A DNA stretch of 35,795 nucleotides from a virus. The notes below the pieces were generated by a model that saw only the letters and a list, made by a program, of their open reading frames with translations, searched no databases and had not been told where the DNA came from. Of this stretch, positions 1 through 35,795 are shown one piece after another. Each line of letters opens with the position of its first letter. The first letter of the stretch is position 1. The position numbers were made by a program, and so were the translations under genes. The stretch lies in the IMG/VR virus record IMGVR_UViG_3300045988_018861; one strand, 5' to 3'.

Positions 1-265
1 CGCCGGAGGCAGTGGCGCAGCTACCGCCGGAGACTTTGGCGCAGCTACCGCCGGAGACAGTGGCGCAGCTACCGCCGGAGGCAGTGGCGCAGCTACCGCC
101 GGAGACTTTGGCGCAGCTACCGCCGGAAACTTTGGCGCAGCTACCGCCGGAGACAGTGGCGCAGCTACCGCCGGATTCCGTGGCGCAGCTACCGCCGGAT
201 TCCGTGGCGCAGCTACCGCCGGAGGCAGTGGCGCAGCTACCGCCGGAGACTTTGGCGCAGCTACA
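1..265 (+). repeat. 24-nt tandem repeat array (about 11 units) inside a coding region; encodes A-T-A-G-x-x-G-A octapeptides
   Basis: Unit is ggcgcagctaccgccgga plus a 6-nt variable patch (gacttt, gacagt, ggcagt, aacttt, ttccgt). It continues the array at 35629-35795. Confidence 0.95.
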
Positions 266-493
266 TCGCGCGGGAGCGCGTCGGTTGGCACAAATGGCAT
301 TGCGTGCGCGCGCGGTTGTGCGCCTATGGCAAGAGGCGGCATCGGCGCCGTGCTGGTGCTCGTCGAAGAGCCATCTAGCAGCTATAACATTGCGCACTGG
401 AAAGCCGTCGAAGTCGATGGCAAAACGGTGAAGGCGGATACGTGGTATCGGCTGAAAAATGGCGAGCTTATGGAAGCAGGTGACGACGAATGA
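2..493 (+). CDS. C-terminal part of the octapeptide-repeat protein (5' part lies at 35275-35795); not in the ORF track because it has no ATG in the window
   Basis: Frame 2 is open from position 2 to TGA at 491-493. It reads AGGSGAATAGDFGAATAGDSGAAT...SRGSASVGTNGIACARG...WKAVEVDGKTVKADTWYRLKNGELMEAGDDE. Confidence 0.85.
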   Translation, partial: AGGSGAATAGDFGAATAGDSGAATAGGSGAATAGDFGAATAGNFGAATAGDSGAATAGFRGAATAGFRGAATAGGSGAATAGDFGAATSRGSASVGTNGIACARGCAPMARGGIGAVLVLVEEPSSSYNIAHWKAVEVDGKTVKADTWYRLKNGELMEAGDDE

Positions 494-645
494 AGGTATT
501 CGGAGACCCGCGCGCGCGGGCAAAGGCGCGCAAATACATTGTGTGGGGCATCGAGGACGGCATCGTCTGTGCGAGCTTCCTCGGCGGCATTGCGCTGGCC
601 GGGTGGGTGTTTCACGTAATCTTCACGGCGCTGGGGGTGGCATGA
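490..645 (+). CDS. Small membrane protein (51 aa), below the ORF-track size cutoff
   Basis: MKVFGDPRARAKARKYIVWGIEDGIVCASFLGGIALAGWVFHVIFTALGVA. ATGA start/stop overlaps at both ends (490-493 and 642-645). AGGTGA lies 8 nt upstream. C-terminal hydrophobic helix. Confidence 0.55.
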   Translation: MKVFGDPRARAKARKYIVWGIEDGIVCASFLGGIALAGWVFHVIFTALGVA

Positions 646-1037
646 TGCAGCACCTCGGTGACATCACAAAACTCGACGGCGCGACCATCGATCCGGTGTG
701 GTGCGTGACGGGTGGCAGCCCATGTCAGGATCTGAGCATCGCTGGCAAGCGCGCCGGTCTCGCAGGCGCGCGAAGCGGCCTGTTTATGGAGCAAATCAGA
801 GTGATAAAGGAGATGCGGGAGCATGACAAACAGCTTGGCTGGGCAGGAGAGCTTATTCGTCCCAGATACATGGTCTGGGAAAACGTCCCCGGAGCGCTCA
901 GCAGCAACAGAGGACGAGACTTCGCGGCCGTGCTCGAAGAGACGATCCGCATCGTCGAACCGGAAGCCCCCGGTATTGAAGTGCCTACAAAAGGCTGGCC
1001 TACCTGGGGCGGGTATCGGGACGTGGACGGACGATGA
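642..1037 (+). CDS. DNA (cytosine-5) methyltransferase fragment, motifs IV and VI only; ends at an in-frame TGA
   Basis: MMQHLGDITKLDG...GGSPCQDLS (PCQ at 720-728) and MVWENVPG (ENVPG at 879-893). The start overlaps the upstream ORF's stop (ATGA). No motif I upstream. Confidence 0.8.
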   Translation: MMQHLGDITKLDGATIDPVWCVTGGSPCQDLSIAGKRAGLAGARSGLFMEQIRVIKEMREHDKQLGWAGELIRPRYMVWENVPGALSSNRGRDFAAVLEETIRIVEPEAPGIEVPTKGWPTWGGYRDVDGR

Positions 1038-2097
1038 AGTGTGGCTTGGCGAGTCCACGACGCGCAATACTGGGGAGTGCCCCAGCGTCGCCGTCGAATC
1101 GCGCTTGTCGCAGATTTTGGAGGCGACACCGCCCACGAAATACTGTTTGAGCGCGCGGGCGTGTCAGGGAATCTTGAACCGCGCGGCGAGGCGGGGGAAA
1201 GCCCTACCGGAAATGCTGAAAGCGGCGTTAATCCGGCAGTCACAAGAAGTATCACCGCAAGAGCGGATGGAAGCCCCTGCGCTGTGCGCCGCCTTTAAGC
1301 TAGGCAACAGTGAACAGGCGCGGAGCATCGGCTATCAGGAGGAGCTGTCCCCTACACTGAACGCCGAGTGCGGCGGGAATAAGCCTGCTGTGGTTACACC
1401 TGCGGCATACGGCATCTGCTCTTACGCCAGCAACAGTATGAAATCATCGAACCCGCACAGCGGCGTCTACAAAGCGGACACCAGCCGGACGCTTGACCTG
1501 AATGGCGGGAATCCGGCTTGCAATCAGGGTGGCATTGCCGTGGTGCAAAGGGCGTATCAGATGCAGGGCTTTGGCGATTACCGCGAAGCTGACGTCGCCA
1601 GCTCCTGCAAACAGCGAGACTACAAGGACAGCACAGATCTGGTTATCGGAATTGACGGAGAATGCAATGCCTATATAGAACAATATGGCACACTGCGAGC
1701 GCACGCGAGCGGCGGTGCGGAAGAAACGCTTATGCATCGCATGGTCGTGCGGCGTCTGACCCCGCTGGAATGTGAACGGCTTCAGGGATTTCCGGATGGC
1801 TGGACGGACATCGGCGACTACACCGACAGCACCGGCAAGAAGCGCAAGACCTCCGACAGCGCGCGGTACAAGGCGCTCGGCAACAGCATCGCGCTGCCGT
1901 TCTGGCGCTGGATGTTCGGGCGCATGGCGGCCTATCTGCCGGAAGGTGCGACACTCGGCAGCCTGTTTGATGGCATCGGCGGATTCCCGCTGTGCTGGGA
2001 GGATGTACACGGTGTCGGGACGGCAATCTGGGCAAGCGAGATTGAGGAGTTTCCAATCGCCGTGACGAAAAAGAGATTTGGAGGGGTAAAAACATGA
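823..2097 (+). CDS. DNA (cytosine-5) methyltransferase, target-recognition region + motifs IX, X and then motif I at the C-terminus; overlaps 642-1298 in the +1 frame
   Basis: RRLTPLECERLQGFPDGW (1750-1794), YKALGNSIALP (GNS at 1879-1887), then GSLFDGIGGFP...WASEIEEFPIAVTKKRF (FDGIGG at 1966-1983). AAGGAG at 807-812 precedes ATG 823. The frame is open from 805 to 2097. Confidence 0.85.
   Translation: MTNSLAGQESLFVPDTWSGKTSPERSAATEDETSRPCSKRRSASSNRKPPVLKCLQKAGLPGAGIGTWTDDEVWLGESTTRNTGECPSVAVESRLSQILEATPPTKYCLSARACQGILNRAARRGKALPEMLKAALIRQSQEVSPQERMEAPALCAAFKLGNSEQARSIGYQEELSPTLNAECGGNKPAVVTPAAYGICSYASNSMKSSNPHSGVYKADTSRTLDLNGGNPACNQGGIAVVQRAYQMQGFGDYREADVASSCKQRDYKDSTDLVIGIDGECNAYIEQYGTLRAHASGGAEETLMHRMVVRRLTPLECERLQGFPDGWTDIGDYTDSTGKKRKTSDSARYKALGNSIALPFWRWMFGRMAAYLPEGATLGSLFDGIGGFPLCWEDVHGVGTAIWASEIEEFPIAVTKKRFGGVKT
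1038..1298 (+). CDS. Same-frame continuation of the methyltransferase after the TGA (motif VIII); possibly pseudogenised or read through
   Basis: SVAWRVHDAQYWGVPQRRRRIALVADFGGDTAHEILFE (QRRRR at 1083-1097). Same frame as 642-1037. Stops at TAA 1296-1298. Confidence 0.6.
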   Translation, partial: SVAWRVHDAQYWGVPQRRRRIALVADFGGDTAHEILFERAGVSGNLEPRGEAGESPTGNAESGVNPAVTRSITARADGSPCAVRRL

Positions 2098-2387
2098 AAA
2101 CCAGACATGATAACGGCGCACCCGCTGTGGAAAGCGTACGCGAGCTGCTGAACCGGCCGCGCTCGAGCGCAGATTTCTCGCCAGCAGCACGCTACGCTGT
2201 TAACAAGCTGTGCGACTATGCTGAACAGGAGCACGAGCAGCGCGAGAAAGCGGAAACCATGCTCTGTAACGAGCGGCGCAAGGCACTTGCGTTCTCTGCC
2301 GAAATGGCGCGGCAGGAACGCACGATCGACGACTTGCGGCAGCAGTTGTCGTTTATGCAGCAGGCGCGGTGGGACGCGGGGGTGTGA
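2094..2387 (+). CDS. Hypothetical protein (coiled-coil-like)
   Basis: ATG with GGAGGGG RBS; start overlaps the upstream stop; 97 aa. Confidence 0.6.
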   Translation: MKTRHDNGAPAVESVRELLNRPRSSADFSPAARYAVNKLCDYAEQEHEQREKAETMLCNERRKALAFSAEMARQERTIDDLRQQLSFMQQARWDAGV

Positions 2388-2389
2388 AT

Positions 2390-2728
2390 ATGGACGTGGC
2401 AGAATTTTTTAGCGAACTCAGACGGATGTGTAAATCGTCCAGTGATTGCGCAAAGTGTGAGTATCATGGTGACAGGTGCGATAACGCCATTGAGCTTCTC
2501 GAAAAAAACGTTGCTGTGGTGGAACAGTGGTCTCTGGAGCATCCGCGCAAGACGCGACAGGACGTGTTTTTGGAACAGTGGCCGGAGGCAAAGATTGAAG
2601 ATGGTATGTTGAAATTATGTCCCTGCATGATTTCCGAGTCGCACAGGGACGCACAAGGTAACTGCGCAACCATACAGCGCCAATGTTCTGACTGCTGCCG
2701 CGAGTTCTGGATGCAGGAGGTGGAGTGA
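2390..2728 (+). CDS. Hypothetical Cys-rich protein
   Basis: MDVAEFFSELRRMCKSSSDCAKCEYHGDRCDN...; ATG 2390 preferred over GTG 2369 (GGGGGTG RBS). Confidence 0.6.
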   Translation: MDVAEFFSELRRMCKSSSDCAKCEYHGDRCDNAIELLEKNVAVVEQWSLEHPRKTRQDVFLEQWPEAKIEDGMLKLCPCMISESHRDAQGNCATIQRQCSDCCREFWMQEVE

Positions 2729-2907
2729 TGGGTTGTGATACTTGTGTATTTTACCCGCCAAGCGCTTGCGACGGTAAACCGTGCTGCGTGTGTGACACTG
2801 ACGATGTATTGTTTAACTGCTATCAACCAGCTTGTGAAAAGGAAGGTGCTGACATGGTTGAATACATCAAGCGTGGAGCGGCGACGCGCGAACTGAAAGA
2901 GGAATAA
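2728..2907 (+). CDS. Hypothetical small Cys-rich protein
   Basis: MGCDTCVFYPPSACDGKPCCVCD...; TGATG overlap with the upstream stop. The C-terminal part carries an internal MVEYIKRGAA motif. Confidence 0.5.
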   Translation: MGCDTCVFYPPSACDGKPCCVCDTDDVLFNCYQPACEKEGADMVEYIKRGAATRELKEE

Positions 2908-2946
2908 CCATGCCGAAAGGTAATGCAAGAATGGAGGACTACTTAA

Positions 2947-3231
2947 ATGATCGCTGAGTATCTTGATAAGGGCAGTTTAGTTGCGCGGATGGGATATTAC
3001 AAGGAGCACACCACTGAGGGATCTGGTGAACATTATGCGTATGGGGTTGCACTGAGAGAGATAAGAAATGCCCCCGCTGCTAACGTTGCGCCGGTGGTGC
3101 GGTGCAAAGACTGCGAATACAGCTACGACGAAATAAGCTATCTGTGCTGTTCGCACGGTGTTTGTGCTGACTGCGAAGTGCCGCCGAACTTCTACTGTGC
3201 AGAGGGGAAAAGAAAGGAGAATGACGAATGA
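2947..3231 (+). CDS. Hypothetical zinc-ribbon-like protein, paralog of 4186-4479
   Basis: MIAEYLDKG...NAPAANVAPVVRCKDCEY...; shares the 21-nt string gttgcgccggtggtgcggtgc with 4186-4479. Confidence 0.65.
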   Translation: MIAEYLDKGSLVARMGYYKEHTTEGSGEHYAYGVALREIRNAPAANVAPVVRCKDCEYSYDEISYLCCSHGVCADCEVPPNFYCAEGKRKENDE

Positions 3232-3506
3232 CAGCAGCAGAAGCGAAAAGGATTATACACCCCGAAACTACGGTAGAAGCGCTTGCAGAAATCAAAGACA
3301 AGAACGCAAAAGTTGCCGCAGTTGATGACGCTTGCTTGGTGGCATGCGCTGCGCTTGATAAGCAGATACCGAAGAAGCCGAGAGAAACAAGGTGCGCTTT
3401 GATGTGCGCAAATTGCGGGCACAAAATCACGGAAAAAGGCTGTAAGAAATTACATAGAAACTACTGCAAAAAATGCGGTCAGCGGATTTTATGGGAGGAT
3501 GAATAA
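3228..3506 (+). CDS. Hypothetical zinc-ribbon protein
   Basis: CANCGHKI...YCKKCGQRI CxxC pairs; ATGA overlap with the upstream stop. Confidence 0.6.
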   Translation: MTAAEAKRIIHPETTVEALAEIKDKNAKVAAVDDACLVACAALDKQIPKKPRETRCALMCANCGHKITEKGCKKLHRNYCKKCGQRILWEDE

Positions 3507-3527
3507 TGGAAGGAGACGGCAGAGAAG

Positions 3528-35274: not shown

Positions 35275-35795
35275 ATGAAAAACGAAATCATTTCCTACAA
35301 GGGCATGGACAGCAAAATGCAGTGCCGCGGGATGCAGTACGAAGTCGGCAAGGAATTCTCCGTCGACGGAGAGATCAAGTGCTGCAGCAACGGACTGCAC
35401 GCCTGCGAGCGTCCGCTGGATGTGCTCGGCTACTACGCGCCGGGCACCGGCAGCCGGTACTTCCGCGTCACGCAGAGCGGCGACCTCGCACGAGAGCTGG
35501 GCGGCGACAGCAAAGTCGCGTCCCGCAAGATGCGTGTGGATGCAGAGATCGGCATCCCCGGTCTTGTCAAAGCGCACATCGAGTACGTAAAAGCGCACAC
35601 AACGACGGAGCACACCGACCCGAAACGCGCTACTGCCGGAGACTTTGGCGCAGCTACCGCCGGAAACTTTGGCGCAGCTACCGCCGGATTCCGTGGCGCA
35701 GCTACCGCCGGATTCCGTGGCGCAGCTACCGCCGGATTCCGTGGCGCAGCTACCGCCGGAGGCAGTGGCGCAGCTACCGCCGGAGACTTTGGCGC
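35275..35795 (+). CDS. N-terminal part of the octapeptide-repeat protein (DUF7666-like N-domain), runs off the window end and continues at 2-493
   Basis: AAAGGAGAAACAAC-ATG at 35275. MKNEIISYKGMDSKMQCRGMQYEVGKEFSVDGEIKCCSNGLHACERPLDVLGYYAPG...TEHTDPKRATAGDFGAATAGNFGAATAGFRGAAT... No stop before the window end. Absent from the ORF track. Confidence 0.85.
   Translation, partial: MKNEIISYKGMDSKMQCRGMQYEVGKEFSVDGEIKCCSNGLHACERPLDVLGYYAPGTGSRYFRVTQSGDLARELGGDSKVASRKMRVDAEIGIPGLVKAHIEYVKAHTTTEHTDPKRATAGDFGAATAGNFGAATAGFRGAATAGFRGAATAGFRGAATAGGSGAATAGDFG
35629..35795 (+). repeat. 24-nt tandem repeat array (about 7 units), same family as 1-265
   Basis: gc(t/a)ac(t/c)gccgga plus a variable 6-mer plus ggcgca, in frame with the ORF starting at 35275. 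Confidence 0.95.

What the first reader, a model, noticed from the sequence alone, without database searches (positions are those of the whole stretch)
823..1298. About 476 nt read in two frames, both protein-like, with an internal SD + ATG for the second frame
Frame 0 (642-1298) carries methyltransferase motifs VI and VIII. The +1 frame is open from 805 to 2097 and has AAGGAG (807-812) 10 nt before ATG 823. It gives a 424-aa ORF whose first ~158 aa lie entirely inside the frame-0 gene. Across this stretch the same nucleotides read as follows:
- YMVWENVPG in frame 0 and DTWSGKTSPE in frame +1;
- GVPQRRRRIALVADFGG in frame 0 and ECPSVAVESRLSQILEA in frame +1;
- HEILFE in frame 0 and TKYCLS in frame +1.
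The +1 text (...SRLSQILEATPPTKYCLSARACQGILNRAARRGKALPEMLKAAL...) looks to me like a genuine methyltransferase-associated segment rather than noise. An alternative frame staying stop-free for about 158 codons is unlikely by chance. Three readings are possible: a natural two-subunit enzyme with overlapping genes (as in M.AquI), overprinting, or a frameshift (programmed, mutational or a sequencing indel) somewhere before TAA 1296.
Basis: partly seen in the sequence, partly recalled or inferred. Interest (0 to 1): 0.75.

Follow-up and report, generated by a model that had tools for sequence, protein, structure and literature searches.

The report
Hidden gene inside phage methyltransferase gene
The two-frame stretch is real: it holds a conserved, unannotated small gene read one base out of step inside a phage DNA cytosine methyltransferase gene, found in thousands of phages and prophages including phage P1, and in this window the methyltransferase around it is also broken.

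Summary
Window 642-2097 is a circularly permuted phage C5 cytosine methyltransferase (MTase) gene, motif order IV-VI-VIII-TRD-IX-X-I-II. Frame 0 is not open, though: TGA sits at 1035-1037.

The +1 reading is not noise. A +1 ORF of about 135-170 codons is nested in this MTase subfamily in all ~175 loci examined, from several phyla and including phage P1 dmt. Synonymous recoding of the MTase cannot reproduce its conserved C-terminal segment (window 1075-1257): 53-69 bits observed, at most 39 recoded. There the wobble position is that of the +1 frame. The upstream part ("WSGKTSPE") is similar only as a by-product of motif VI, but it is kept stop-free (31.5 stops expected, 0 seen).

Normally this nested ORF terminates. 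Here a 230-nt (3n+2) module loss at about 1276-1285 fuses it to the MTase 3' part, giving 424 aa. Four independent contigs share that allele. The TGA is private to the window.

No Pfam or solved-structure relative was found, and no description in the searched literature. Function is unknown.

The parts
642..1034 (+). Frame-0 MTase segment 1 (ORF A, 5' part): start ATG 642 (ATGA overlap with the upstream small ORF 490..645), motif IV GGSPCQ 711-728, motif VI ENVPG 879-893
   Evidence: PF00145 positions 46-129, E 1.4e-16; phrog_363 positions 100-182; coordinates
1035..1037 (+). In-frame TGA nonsense codon in frame 0; G-to-A at 1037 replaces the TGG (Trp) of DGRWSVAWR; private to this window
   Evidence: Four contigs 99.94% identical over 460-2100 differ only at 1037 (G). 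L177, L087 and L088 also read W here.
1038..1298 (+). Frame-0 MTase segment 2: motif VIII QRRRR 1083-1097, poorly conserved linker (HEILFE 1134-1151 ...), first TRD module (NPAVTRSITARADGSPCA), stop TAA 1296-1298
   Evidence: PF00145 positions 137-160; phrog_116 positions 347-393; module shared with L035, L002 and L177
807..825 (+). Translation start of the nested +1 gene: SD AAGGAG 807-812 (read as K-E of frame-0 IKEMRE) and ATG 823-825, just after the +1 stops TGA/TAA 802-807
   Evidence: An ATG with an SD-like stretch 2-5 codons after the upstream +1 stop recurs in most lineages; also in P1 and Thibault gp104.
823..1074 (+). Nested +1 gene, part A: predicted disordered N-terminal region overlying motif VI up to motif VIII. 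Sequence similarity is a by-product of frame 0, but the frame is kept stop-free.
   Evidence: Recoding test not significant. Stop avoidance: 31.5 expected, 0 observed in 16 lineages. Frame-0 position-3 diversity 0.145 versus 0.37 in the IX-X-I-II region. pLDDT below 50.
1075..1257 (+). Nested +1 gene, part B: conserved basic three-helix domain ECPSVAVESRLSQILEATPPTKYCLSARACQGILNRAARRGKALPEMLKAAL..., overlying motif VIII and the frame-0 linker
   Evidence: +1 profile scores 53-69 bits versus at most 39 for synonymous recodings, 0 of 500-1000. Wobble at +1 position 3. pLDDT 78-93 and helices at residues 94-141. pI 10.0.
1276..1285 (+). Out-of-frame junction in the mosaic TRD: 230 nt (2 mod 3) missing relative to intact L035; it removes the nested gene's last codons and stop and joins it to the MTase 3' part
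   Evidence: blastn: window 1020-1282 = L035 2894-3156 and window 1276-1391 = L035 3380-3495; alignment; similarity to L177 ends at 1280; same junction in 4 independent contigs
1286..2097 (+). 3' two-thirds of the MTase, now in the +1 frame: TRD modules, motif IX 1750-1794, motif X 1867-1899, then permuted motif I 1963-1983 and motif II 2029-2052, stop 2095-2097
   Evidence: PF00145 positions 255-315; phrog_16427, and phrog_363 positions 51-96 at ORF residues 215-262; coordinates

Best explanation
Window 642-2097 is a circularly permuted C5 cytosine methyltransferase gene of a tailed phage. Like its relatives, it carries a second gene nested in the +1 frame. That nested gene has its own Shine-Dalgarno sequence and ATG (807-825). 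Its N-terminal ~85 residues are a disordered stretch whose sequence is dictated by the methyltransferase frame. Its C-terminal ~55 residues (1075-1257) form a conserved, basic three-helix domain. This domain lies over the stretch where the methyltransferase reads only a loosely constrained linker after motif VIII. That is the usual way two reading frames share DNA: the ordered part of one lies over a tolerant part of the other. Normally the nested gene stops about 35-70 codons after the LS..AC..IL motif and yields a 135-170-aa protein.

Shown: conservation of the open frame, selection on the +1 amino-acid sequence, and the start signals. Inferred: that the ORF is translated from its own start. 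Its function is unknown. My best guess, at low confidence, is a DNA-binding or methyltransferase-binding accessory factor co-expressed from the same mRNA, because it is strongly basic and never occurs apart from this enzyme.

In this phage lineage, a 230-nt module loss in the target-recognition region (about 1276-1285) shifted the rest of the methyltransferase into the nested gene's frame. This produced overlapping ORF A (642-1298) and a 424-aa fusion ORF B (823-2097). The window has in addition a private G-to-A change that makes TGA at 1035-1037 and truncates ORF A before motif VIII. The methyltransferase here is therefore most likely inactive, while the nested gene's conserved domain is intact.
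For: Nested ORF is universal in this subfamily:
- +1 is open about 86 codons upstream and 59-93 downstream of motif VIII in 80 of 80 IMG/VR relatives; +2 is open only 4-17 and 7-25.
- In 80 of 80 bacterial-genome loci from several phyla, part B is +1 to a C5-MTase frame (motif VIII found by regex in 79) and is never standalone.
- It is present in Streptococcus phage Javan105 (43% GC), Mycobacterium phage Dove and Caulobacter phage DMCA, and in phage P1 dmt, where it is the only alternative-frame open segment of at least 60 codons in 755.

Selection on the +1 protein:
- Real +1 translations score 60-76 bits against a gut-phage +1 profile, versus means of 5-27 and a maximum of 56 for synonymous recodings (0 of 500).
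- The excess is confined to part B: 53-64 bits versus a maximum of 39, with frame 0 scoring only 20-29 bits there. P1 gives 66-69 versus a maximum of 27 (0 of 1000).
- Codon-position diversity inverts in part B, in two independent data sets: frame-0 position 1 = 0.15-0.50 and position 3 = 0.02-0.25, whereas upstream of motif VIII and beyond the nested ORF position 3 is the most diverse or ties for it.

Own start rather than a frameshift:
- Part A is stop-free in 16 non-redundant lineages (31.5 stops expected, summed log10 P = -17.4), while +2 stops are near expectation, 61 observed versus about 73.
- A conserved ATG with an SD follows the upstream stop.
- In phage Thibault an ~800-nt HNH insertion separates motif VIII from part B, and part B persists as an 81-aa ORF with a new ATG and GGAG.

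Structure: residues 94-141 are helical with pLDDT 78-93; the rest is disordered.

Window lesions: junction; the allele shared by 4 independent contigs that differ from the window only at position 1037.

Negative control: in E. coli dcm the +1 segment over motif VIII is only 58 codons.
Against: - There is no direct evidence of translation (no ribosome profiling or peptides).
- The N-terminal two-thirds of the nested ORF show no +1 sequence constraint beyond staying open.
- In GC-rich lineages openness alone is weak evidence: probability of zero stops is 0.4 for L003 and L086.
- No homolog of known function was found in Pfam, NCBIfam, PADLOC, PDB sequences or PDB folds, so the functional proposal is a guess.
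- Many cluster representatives are long fusions. The fused form may therefore be commoner, or more functional, than my sample of loci suggests (about 3%).
- The TGA is a single private base and could be a sequencing error or a minor variant.
Confidence: 0.75

Rival explanations
1. By-product: only the methyltransferase frame is translated. The +1 frame looks protein-like and stays open because the nucleotides are conserved and GC-rich.
For: This is true for the upstream part. +1 similarity over motif VI up to motif VIII (including WSGKTSPE) is no better than in synonymous recodings: 89-151 of 500 shuffles reach the observed score. Within-region shuffles give zero +1 stops in up to 43% of cases for the GC-rich phage Dove.
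Against: It cannot explain part B. Observed scores are 53-69 bits versus at most 39 recoded, with 0 of 500-1000 shuffles reaching them. +1 is better conserved than frame 0 there, and the wobble sits at +1 position 3 in two data sets. The ORF is open at 42-49% GC. Joint stop avoidance has summed log10 P = -17.4.
Confidence: 0.04
2. Split enzyme: in this lineage ORF A (IV-VI-VIII) and ORF B (TRD-IX-X-I-II) are the two subunits of a working methyltransferase, as in M.AquI. The overlap merely supplies ORF B with a start site.
For: Three sister contigs have an intact 218-aa ORF A plus the 424-aa ORF B. The allele is found in 4 independent runs. The break lies in the variable region between motifs VIII and IX, where M.AquI is split (my own knowledge of Karreman and de Waard 1990, not checked here). 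Window-like fusions recur in other lineages: L002, L093, L141, L161 and many representatives.
Against: In the window ORF A is cut by TGA before motif VIII. Among five near-identical contigs, the only two differences in 1.6 kb both disrupt ORF A: G1037A and a 25-nt deletion at 753-777. That looks like decay of an already dead enzyme. This reading also does not explain why intact single-chain relatives conserve the terminating nested ORF.
Confidence: 0.2
3. Programmed +1 ribosomal frameshift: ribosomes translating the methyltransferase slip into +1 near motif VIII (a run of Arg codons) and make a truncated enzyme carrying part B as a C-terminal tail. The +1 ORF is not initiated independently.
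For: +1 selection is confined to the region after motif VIII. Natural fusions of motifs IV-VI to part B exist: the FP_Toutatis 201-aa ORF and database proteins carrying PF00145 plus part B.
Against: This model gives no reason for part A to be stop-free, yet it is. A conserved ATG with an SD lies at the head of the ORF. Thibault gp104 keeps part B behind an ~800-nt insertion with its own ATG. I did not identify a conserved slippery site, and I did not search for one systematically.
Confidence: 0.08
4. Artefact: the two-ORF layout in the window is a sequencing or assembly error in a normal single-frame gene.
For: The exact 424-aa product of the window is not on record elsewhere. The TGA is a single private base.
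Against: The junction and the whole 1.64-kb region are reproduced at 99.94% identity in 4 contigs from 4 different runs. The frame change is a 230-nt module difference, not a homopolymer indel.
Confidence: 0.15

Closest known systems
Lambda Rz/Rz1 and similar phage 'gene within a gene' pairs (my own knowledge)
   Same: A complete gene with its own SD and start codon lies embedded in the +1 frame of a longer phage gene on the same strand.
   Different: Rz and Rz1 are two subunits of one spanin, and the pairing is restricted to lysis cassettes. Here the host gene is an enzyme's catalytic core, the nested product has no known partner or function, and the pairing is conserved across phages of several bacterial phyla.
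M.AquI two-subunit C5 methyltransferase with overlapping ORFs
   Same: A C5 methyltransferase is encoded by two ORFs in different frames, split in the variable region between motifs VIII and IX. The sister contigs of the window have this layout.
   Different: In M.AquI both ORFs encode methyltransferase sequence and overlap only briefly. Here the 476-nt overlap encodes a non-methyltransferase protein in +1, about 97% of relatives are single-chain, and the window's first ORF carries a nonsense codon.
E. coli dcm-vsr overlap
   Same: A gene in another frame overlaps a C5 methyltransferase gene on the same strand. dcm 1400-2818 and vsr 949-1419 overlap by 20 nt in L174.
   Different: That overlap is only 20 nt at the 3' end, and Vsr is a mismatch endonuclease. 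dcm has no part-B-like +1 ORF over motif VIII (58 codons).
Circularly permuted C5 methyltransferases (M.BssHII, plant DRM2; my own knowledge)
   Same: The conserved motifs occur in a rotated order within one polypeptide.
   Different: Here the break lies between motifs II and IV, giving the order IV...X-I-II. I recall the order as IX-X-I...VIII in M.BssHII and VI-X-I-V in DRM2. I did not find this permutation described.
Tymovirus p69 movement protein overprinted on the methyltransferase domain of the replicase (PMC8227390)
   Same: A protein created by overprinting lies over a methyltransferase-coding region, and the newer frame is largely disordered.
   Different: That case is an RNA virus with an RNA-capping methyltransferase and is restricted to one genus. 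The present case is in DNA phages and is far more widely distributed.

Membership tests
C5 cytosine DNA methyltransferase (PF00145 / TIGR00675) | Motifs I (FxGxG), IV (PCQ), VI (ENV), VIII (QRR), IX and X are present | tested here: met
   All were located: IV 711-728, VI 879-893, VIII 1083-1097, IX 1750-1794, X 1867-1899, I 1963-1983. Pfam, NCBIfam and PHROG hits.
C5 cytosine DNA methyltransferase (PF00145 / TIGR00675) | All motifs lie in one uninterrupted reading frame (a functional single-chain enzyme) | tested here: not met
   TGA at 1035-1037 and a frame change at about 1276-1285. The feature is met in relatives L003, L087, L091, L035 and others.
Overprinted (dual-coding) nested gene | The alternative-frame ORF is conserved open across diverged homologs beyond expectation | tested here: met
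   About 175 of 175 loci; 31.5 stops expected versus 0 observed in part A of 16 lineages
Overprinted (dual-coding) nested gene | Purifying selection acts on the alternative-frame amino-acid sequence | tested here: met
   Met for 1075-1257 only: recoding tests and the shift of the wobble position. Not met for 823-1074.
Overprinted (dual-coding) nested gene | Own translation-initiation signals | tested here: met
   AAGGAG 807-812 plus ATG 823. An ATG with an SD-like stretch just after the upstream stop in most lineages; also in P1 and Thibault. This is a sequence pattern only.
Overprinted (dual-coding) nested gene | The product is detected (ribosome footprints, peptides) or there is a phenotype | not testable with these tools
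   No expression data were accessible. The literature searches found nothing.
M.AquI-type two-subunit C5 methyltransferase | Two complete ORFs that together carry all motifs, both intact | tested here: not met
   The window's ORF A is interrupted by TGA before motif VIII. The layout is met in sister contigs L178, L180 and L181, but their activity is untested.
Programmed +1 ribosomal frameshift | A conserved slippery or hungry-codon site at the frame junction, with the upstream alternative frame not required to be open | tested here: inconclusive
   No systematic search for a shift site was made. The stop-free part A and Thibault gp104 argue for independent initiation.
Stop-codon reassignment (TGA read as an amino acid) | In-frame TGA at conserved sense positions throughout the genome, and TGA not used as a terminator | tested here: not met
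   Other window ORFs end in TGA, for example 326..493 and 2094..2387. Four near-identical contigs have TGG at this codon.

The most novel reading that the evidence does not exclude
An ancient protein-coding gene has gone unrecognised inside the catalytic core of phage-type C5 cytosine methyltransferase genes. It occurs in phages and prophages of Bacillota, Actinomycetota, Pseudomonadota and other phyla, and in the classic phage P1 (dmt). It encodes a small basic three-helix protein that works with or alongside the methyltransferase, for example as an accessory, regulatory or anti-restriction factor. Its start site also lets frameshifted alleles such as this window's survive as two-ORF genes.
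Probability: 0.7. Interest if true: 0.85.

Novelty: new member of a known kind. Interest (0 to 1): 0.8.

Why it matters
Long same-strand overlapping genes are rarely established in bacteria and DNA phages, and annotation pipelines forbid them. Here the comparative evidence is unusually strong. The gene sits in a well-known enzyme family and in a tractable model, phage P1 dmt, so it can be tested directly.

There are practical consequences for databases. Thousands of entries for this locus are affected. Gene callers often emit the nested ORF in place of the methyltransferase (L087, L091, L172). At least one phage protein family (phrog_16143) appears to hold nested-ORF gene calls (weak matches) yet is labelled 'DNA methyltransferase'.

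If the product modulates methylation or counters restriction, it adds a player to phage-host epigenetic conflict. The case also shows how a nested start site can turn an out-of-frame deletion into two overlapping ORFs rather than a dead gene.

Tried and rejected
1. A 1-nt indel at the G/A runs near 1190-1200. Rejected: the alignment with L177 over 633-1280 and with four sister contigs is gap-free. The frame change is a 230-nt module difference at about 1276-1285.

2. TGA recoding. Rejected: other genes in the window stop at TGA, and sister contigs read TGG.

3. The +1 text as a known domain. No hit in Pfam, NCBIfam or PADLOC, by PDB sequence search, or in PDB or BFVD folds other than its own family. 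PHROGs gave only weak hits to phrog_16143.

4. A standalone copy of part B. None among the 80 genome loci. Phoebus gene 122 is simply the methyltransferase frame. Thibault gp104 is still inside the interrupted methyltransferase locus.

5. Homology of part B to the segment that follows motif VIII in canonical enzymes. The profile aligns at Dcm 305-326, exactly the expected place, but scores only 3.3 bits over 22 residues. I kept this as a weak lead only.

6. Corroborating the window's exact 424-aa product. Not on record; a one-residue variant was then found through the representative search.

7. Literature. Seven searches and four papers checked; no description of a nested gene in C5 methyltransferases, or of this permutation, was found. 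The held library is incomplete, so prior description cannot be excluded.
Full report
**1. The observation**

The +1 ORF 823..2097 (424 aa), the AAGGAG at 807-812, the ATG at 823 and all quoted peptides are in the sequence as described. Frame 0, however, is not open from 642 to 1298. There is a TGA at 1035-1037 (…VDGR*SVAWRV…).

Pfam places the frame-0 pieces at positions 46-129 and 137-160 of the C5 methylase model, and the +1 ORF at positions 255-315. The last ~45 residues of the +1 ORF are motifs I and II (LFDGIGG…WASEIEEF). They match the N-terminal part of phrog_363 (profile positions 51-96), while the frame-0 pieces match positions 100-235. The gene is therefore circularly permuted, in the order IV-VI-VIII-TRD-IX-X-I-II. 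The same order is seen as one uninterrupted ORF in relatives such as L003 (590 aa).

The window itself is a tailed-phage genome with terminase, portal, major head, tape measure and endolysin genes. The same 24-nt tandem repeat lies at both ends, which suggests a complete circular element.

**2. The normal state of this locus**

In 80 IMG/VR relatives that are 62-100% identical to L003's enzyme:

- Frame 0 runs on uninterrupted for 348-522 codons past motif VIII in every one.
- The +1 frame is open about 86 codons upstream and 59-93 codons downstream of motif VIII.
- The +2 frame is open only 4-17 codons upstream and 7-25 downstream.

The ordinary arrangement is thus a single-chain methyltransferase with a terminating +1 ORF of about 145-180 codons nested inside it. 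Examples are L087 (454 aa with 153 aa nested) and L091 (552 aa with 154 aa nested).

The 158-aa +1 text has no Pfam, PHROG or NCBIfam match. Even so, it matches 797 database proteins, and the proteobacterial version matches 2,614. Nearly all of the listed hits are 140-170-aa "hypothetical proteins". An exhaustive profile search finds 5,134 representative clusters. In several places the public gene caller emitted the nested ORF instead of the methyltransferase.

**3. By-product or gene?**

tblastn finds the +1 text in 136-208 phage records. In every record I inspected it lies +1 to the annotated methyltransferase CDS: Dove, Javan105, DMCA, Phoebus and P1. Four tests separate a by-product from selection.

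- **(a) Synonymous recoding.** The real +1 translations of Javan105, Dove and DMCA score 76, 60 and 68 bits against a profile of the gut-phage +1 ORFs. Recodings of the same methyltransferase protein with the gene's own codon usage average 27, 8 and 5 bits (maxima 56, 35 and 25.5; 0 of 500 reach the observed score).
- **(b) Localisation.** The excess lies only in the 50-60 codons after motif VIII, which I call "part B" (window 1075-1257). There +1 scores 53-64 bits against a shuffle maximum of 39, and frame 0 itself scores only 20-29 bits.
- **(c) Codon-position diversity.** Frame-0 position 1 is +1 position 3. In the gut-phage family, diversity upstream of motif VIII is 0.057/0.053/0.145 for positions 1/2/3. 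At 23-43 codons after motif VIII it becomes 0.15-0.22/0.02-0.08/0.02-0.05. In an independent set of 43 normal-order genes from bacterial genomes the pattern is the same: position 1 = 0.33-0.50 and position 3 = 0.13-0.25 in part B. Upstream of motif VIII and beyond the nested ORF, position 3 is the most diverse or ties for it (0.31-0.62). A three-periodic pattern in the +1 phase points to protein coding in +1, not to an RNA or DNA signal.
- **(d) Stop avoidance in part A.** Across 16 lineages less than 60% identical, recoding predicts 31.5 +1 stops, and none is present (summed log10 P = -17.4). The +2 frame has about its expected number, 61 observed against about 73 expected. Frame-0 synonymous diversity in part A is also depressed, 0.145 against 0.37 in the conserved IX-X-I-II region.

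E. coli dcm, a C5 enzyme of another subfamily, has no such ORF.

**4. Breadth and anatomy**

A scan of one genome per species found more than 600 stretches encoding part B. They are mostly in Bacillota but also occur in Actinomycetota, Bacteroidota, Synergistota, Fibrobacterota and others. In all 80 loci fetched, part B lies +1 to an open frame, and my regex finds motif VIII in that frame in 79 of them. It never stands alone.

The ORF usually begins with an ATG preceded by an SD-like stretch, 2-5 codons after the upstream +1 stop. In the window the SD is the AAGGAG that frame 0 reads as K-E of IKEMRE.

Phage P1 carries the ORF inside dmt as a 163-codon +1 segment. It is the only alternative-frame opening of at least 60 codons in the 755-codon gene at 49% GC. 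Its part B scores 66-69 bits, against a maximum of 27 for recodings, on a profile built without proteobacterial sequences. It is unannotated in the curated record.

In Mycobacterium phage Thibault, an ~800-nt insertion carrying an HNH endonuclease gene sits right after motif VIII. Part B survives there as an 81-aa ORF (gp104) with a new N-terminus, its own ATG and a GGAG. Together with the stop-free part A, this favours independent initiation over a frameshift out of the methyltransferase frame. It also identifies part B as the functional unit.

AlphaFold2 predicts residues 1-90 as disordered and residues 94-141 as three helices with pLDDT 78-93. Part B has a pI of 10.0. No solved structure or known family resembles it. 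phrog_16143, labelled "DNA methyltransferase", weakly matches it and probably consists of such gene calls.

**5. What is special in the window**

Relative to intact L035, window 1020-1282 aligns to 2894-3156 and window 1276-1391 aligns to 3380-3495. So 230 nt (2 mod 3) are missing at about 1276-1285, at a module boundary of the mosaic target-recognition region. Similarity to the close relative L177 also ends at 1280. This removes the nested gene's last few codons and its stop. In relatives the ORF ends …ERTEAPASTEAPTS* at 160 aa. It also puts the remaining TRD, motifs IX and X and motifs I and II into the nested gene's frame, which gives the 424-aa ORF.

The representative search returned P0241, a 424-aa protein identical to the window's except G for E at the codon that overlaps the TGA. 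It is encoded on four contigs from four different sequencing runs. These are 99.94% identical to window 460-2100, and the single mismatch is G instead of A at 1037. The junction is therefore a real circulating allele, and the TGA is private to the window.

The fourth has a 25-nt deletion at 753-777 in ORF A. Thus the only two differences among five near-identical contigs both damage ORF A, and both spare the nested ORF.

Fusions like the window's are rare among loci: the window, L002, L093, L141 and L161 out of about 176. They are frequent among cluster representatives. I think this is because hypervariable TRDs split them into many clusters, but I did not verify that.

**6. Mechanism, with shown and inferred steps marked**

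- **Shown:** the DNA of 1075-1257 is constrained as a +1 protein; the whole +1 ORF is kept open; start signals are conserved; the window's methyltransferase frame has two lesions.
- **Inferred:** the nested ORF is translated from ATG 823. In this lineage it yields a 424-aa fusion protein. The methyltransferase of the window is inactive.
- **Speculative:** the product is an accessory, DNA-binding or anti-restriction factor tied to the methyltransferase.

The M.AquI-like split-enzyme reading remains possible for the sister contigs but not for the window.

**7. Novelty**

Seven literature searches and four papers checked gave no description of a nested gene in C5 methyltransferase genes. Nested +1 genes are a known kind in phages (for example Rz/Rz1; my own knowledge), so I class this as a new member of a known kind. 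Its phylogenetic breadth, its position inside an enzyme's catalytic core and its presence in phage P1 make it a strong and testable case.

Noticed in passing
window 1-264 and 35629-35795: The same 24-nt tandem repeat (11 and 7 copies, about 90% matches) lies at both ends of the window. It encodes octapeptide repeats AQLPPE(T/A/S)(L/V) in an ORF that runs off the 5' end. It suggests a complete circular genome whose assembly broke inside a repeat array. The relative L088 has the same repeats within a gene that hits DUF7666.
   Followed up: partly
window 642-2097; L003 2655-4427: The methyltransferase is circularly permuted (IV-VI-VIII-TRD-IX-X-I-II), with the break between motifs II and IV. In L003 it is a single intact 590-aa ORF. 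There are at least 448 matching stretches in IMG/VR. I did not find this permutation type described.
   Followed up: partly
L173 (phage P1, NC_005856.1) locus 2219-2707, record about 66710-67198: An unannotated 163-codon +1 ORF lies inside P1 dmt and ends …YFLSSKACAGILRRGEKRRKSLPPLLQMALQSVAKA*. It also occurs in P7, SJ46, Bcep22, Vibrio phage CP-T1, Mycobacterium phage Omega and Akkermansia phage Chantilly.
   Followed up: yes
L176 (Mycobacterium phage Thibault) 3555-5063: About 800 nt including an HNH endonuclease gene (gp103) are inserted right after motif VIII (…QRRRRLFFV|C…), yet a 502-codon ORF reads straight through the insertion. It does not have the usual intein ends as I recall them. 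It could be a mobile intron-like element or a homing-endonuclease cassette.
   Followed up: partly
L178-L181 versus window 460-2100: Five near-identical contigs from different runs differ at only two places in 1.64 kb: G1037A (nonsense) and a 25-nt deletion at 753-777. Both inactivate ORF A and both spare the nested ORF. This looks like decay of, or selection against, the methyltransferase half.
   Followed up: partly
L002 about 3490-3509, L035 about 3150-3180, L093; P0242, P0243: Several independent fusions switch frame at the same place: a G-rich stretch where the nested ORF's tail (…QSESG…) meets the TRD module GGCDGGGKGALVQ. This could be a slippage or recombination hot spot, or a phase-variable switch.
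   Followed up: no
L087 3001-3462, L091 3001-3465, L172 2501-3004; phrog_16143: Public gene calls often report the nested ORF and drop or truncate the intact methyltransferase that contains it. One PHROG family that weakly matches the nested protein is labelled 'DNA methyltransferase'. This looks like a systematic annotation error.
   Followed up: partly
window 2369-3506: There is a run of four small cysteine-rich ORFs (119, 60, 94 and 92 aa) with CxxC-like motifs directly downstream of the methyltransferase locus. Similar small Cys-rich ORFs follow the gene in L002 and L003.
   Followed up: no
window 490-645 / 642: The small hydrophobic ORF 490..645 (51 aa, MKVFGDPRARAKAR…) ends in an ATGA overlap with the methyltransferase start codon at 642, which suggests translational coupling. 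The same ORF precedes the gene in L088.
   Followed up: no
L001 (Faecalibacterium phage FP_Toutatis) 2793-4204: In this isolated phage a different 1-nt shift between motifs VI and VIII fuses motifs IV-VI in frame to part B (201 aa). It starts a second ORF at motif VIII (342 aa), and the two overlap by 74 codons. Both are annotated as 'DNA-cytosine methyltransferase'.
   Followed up: partly
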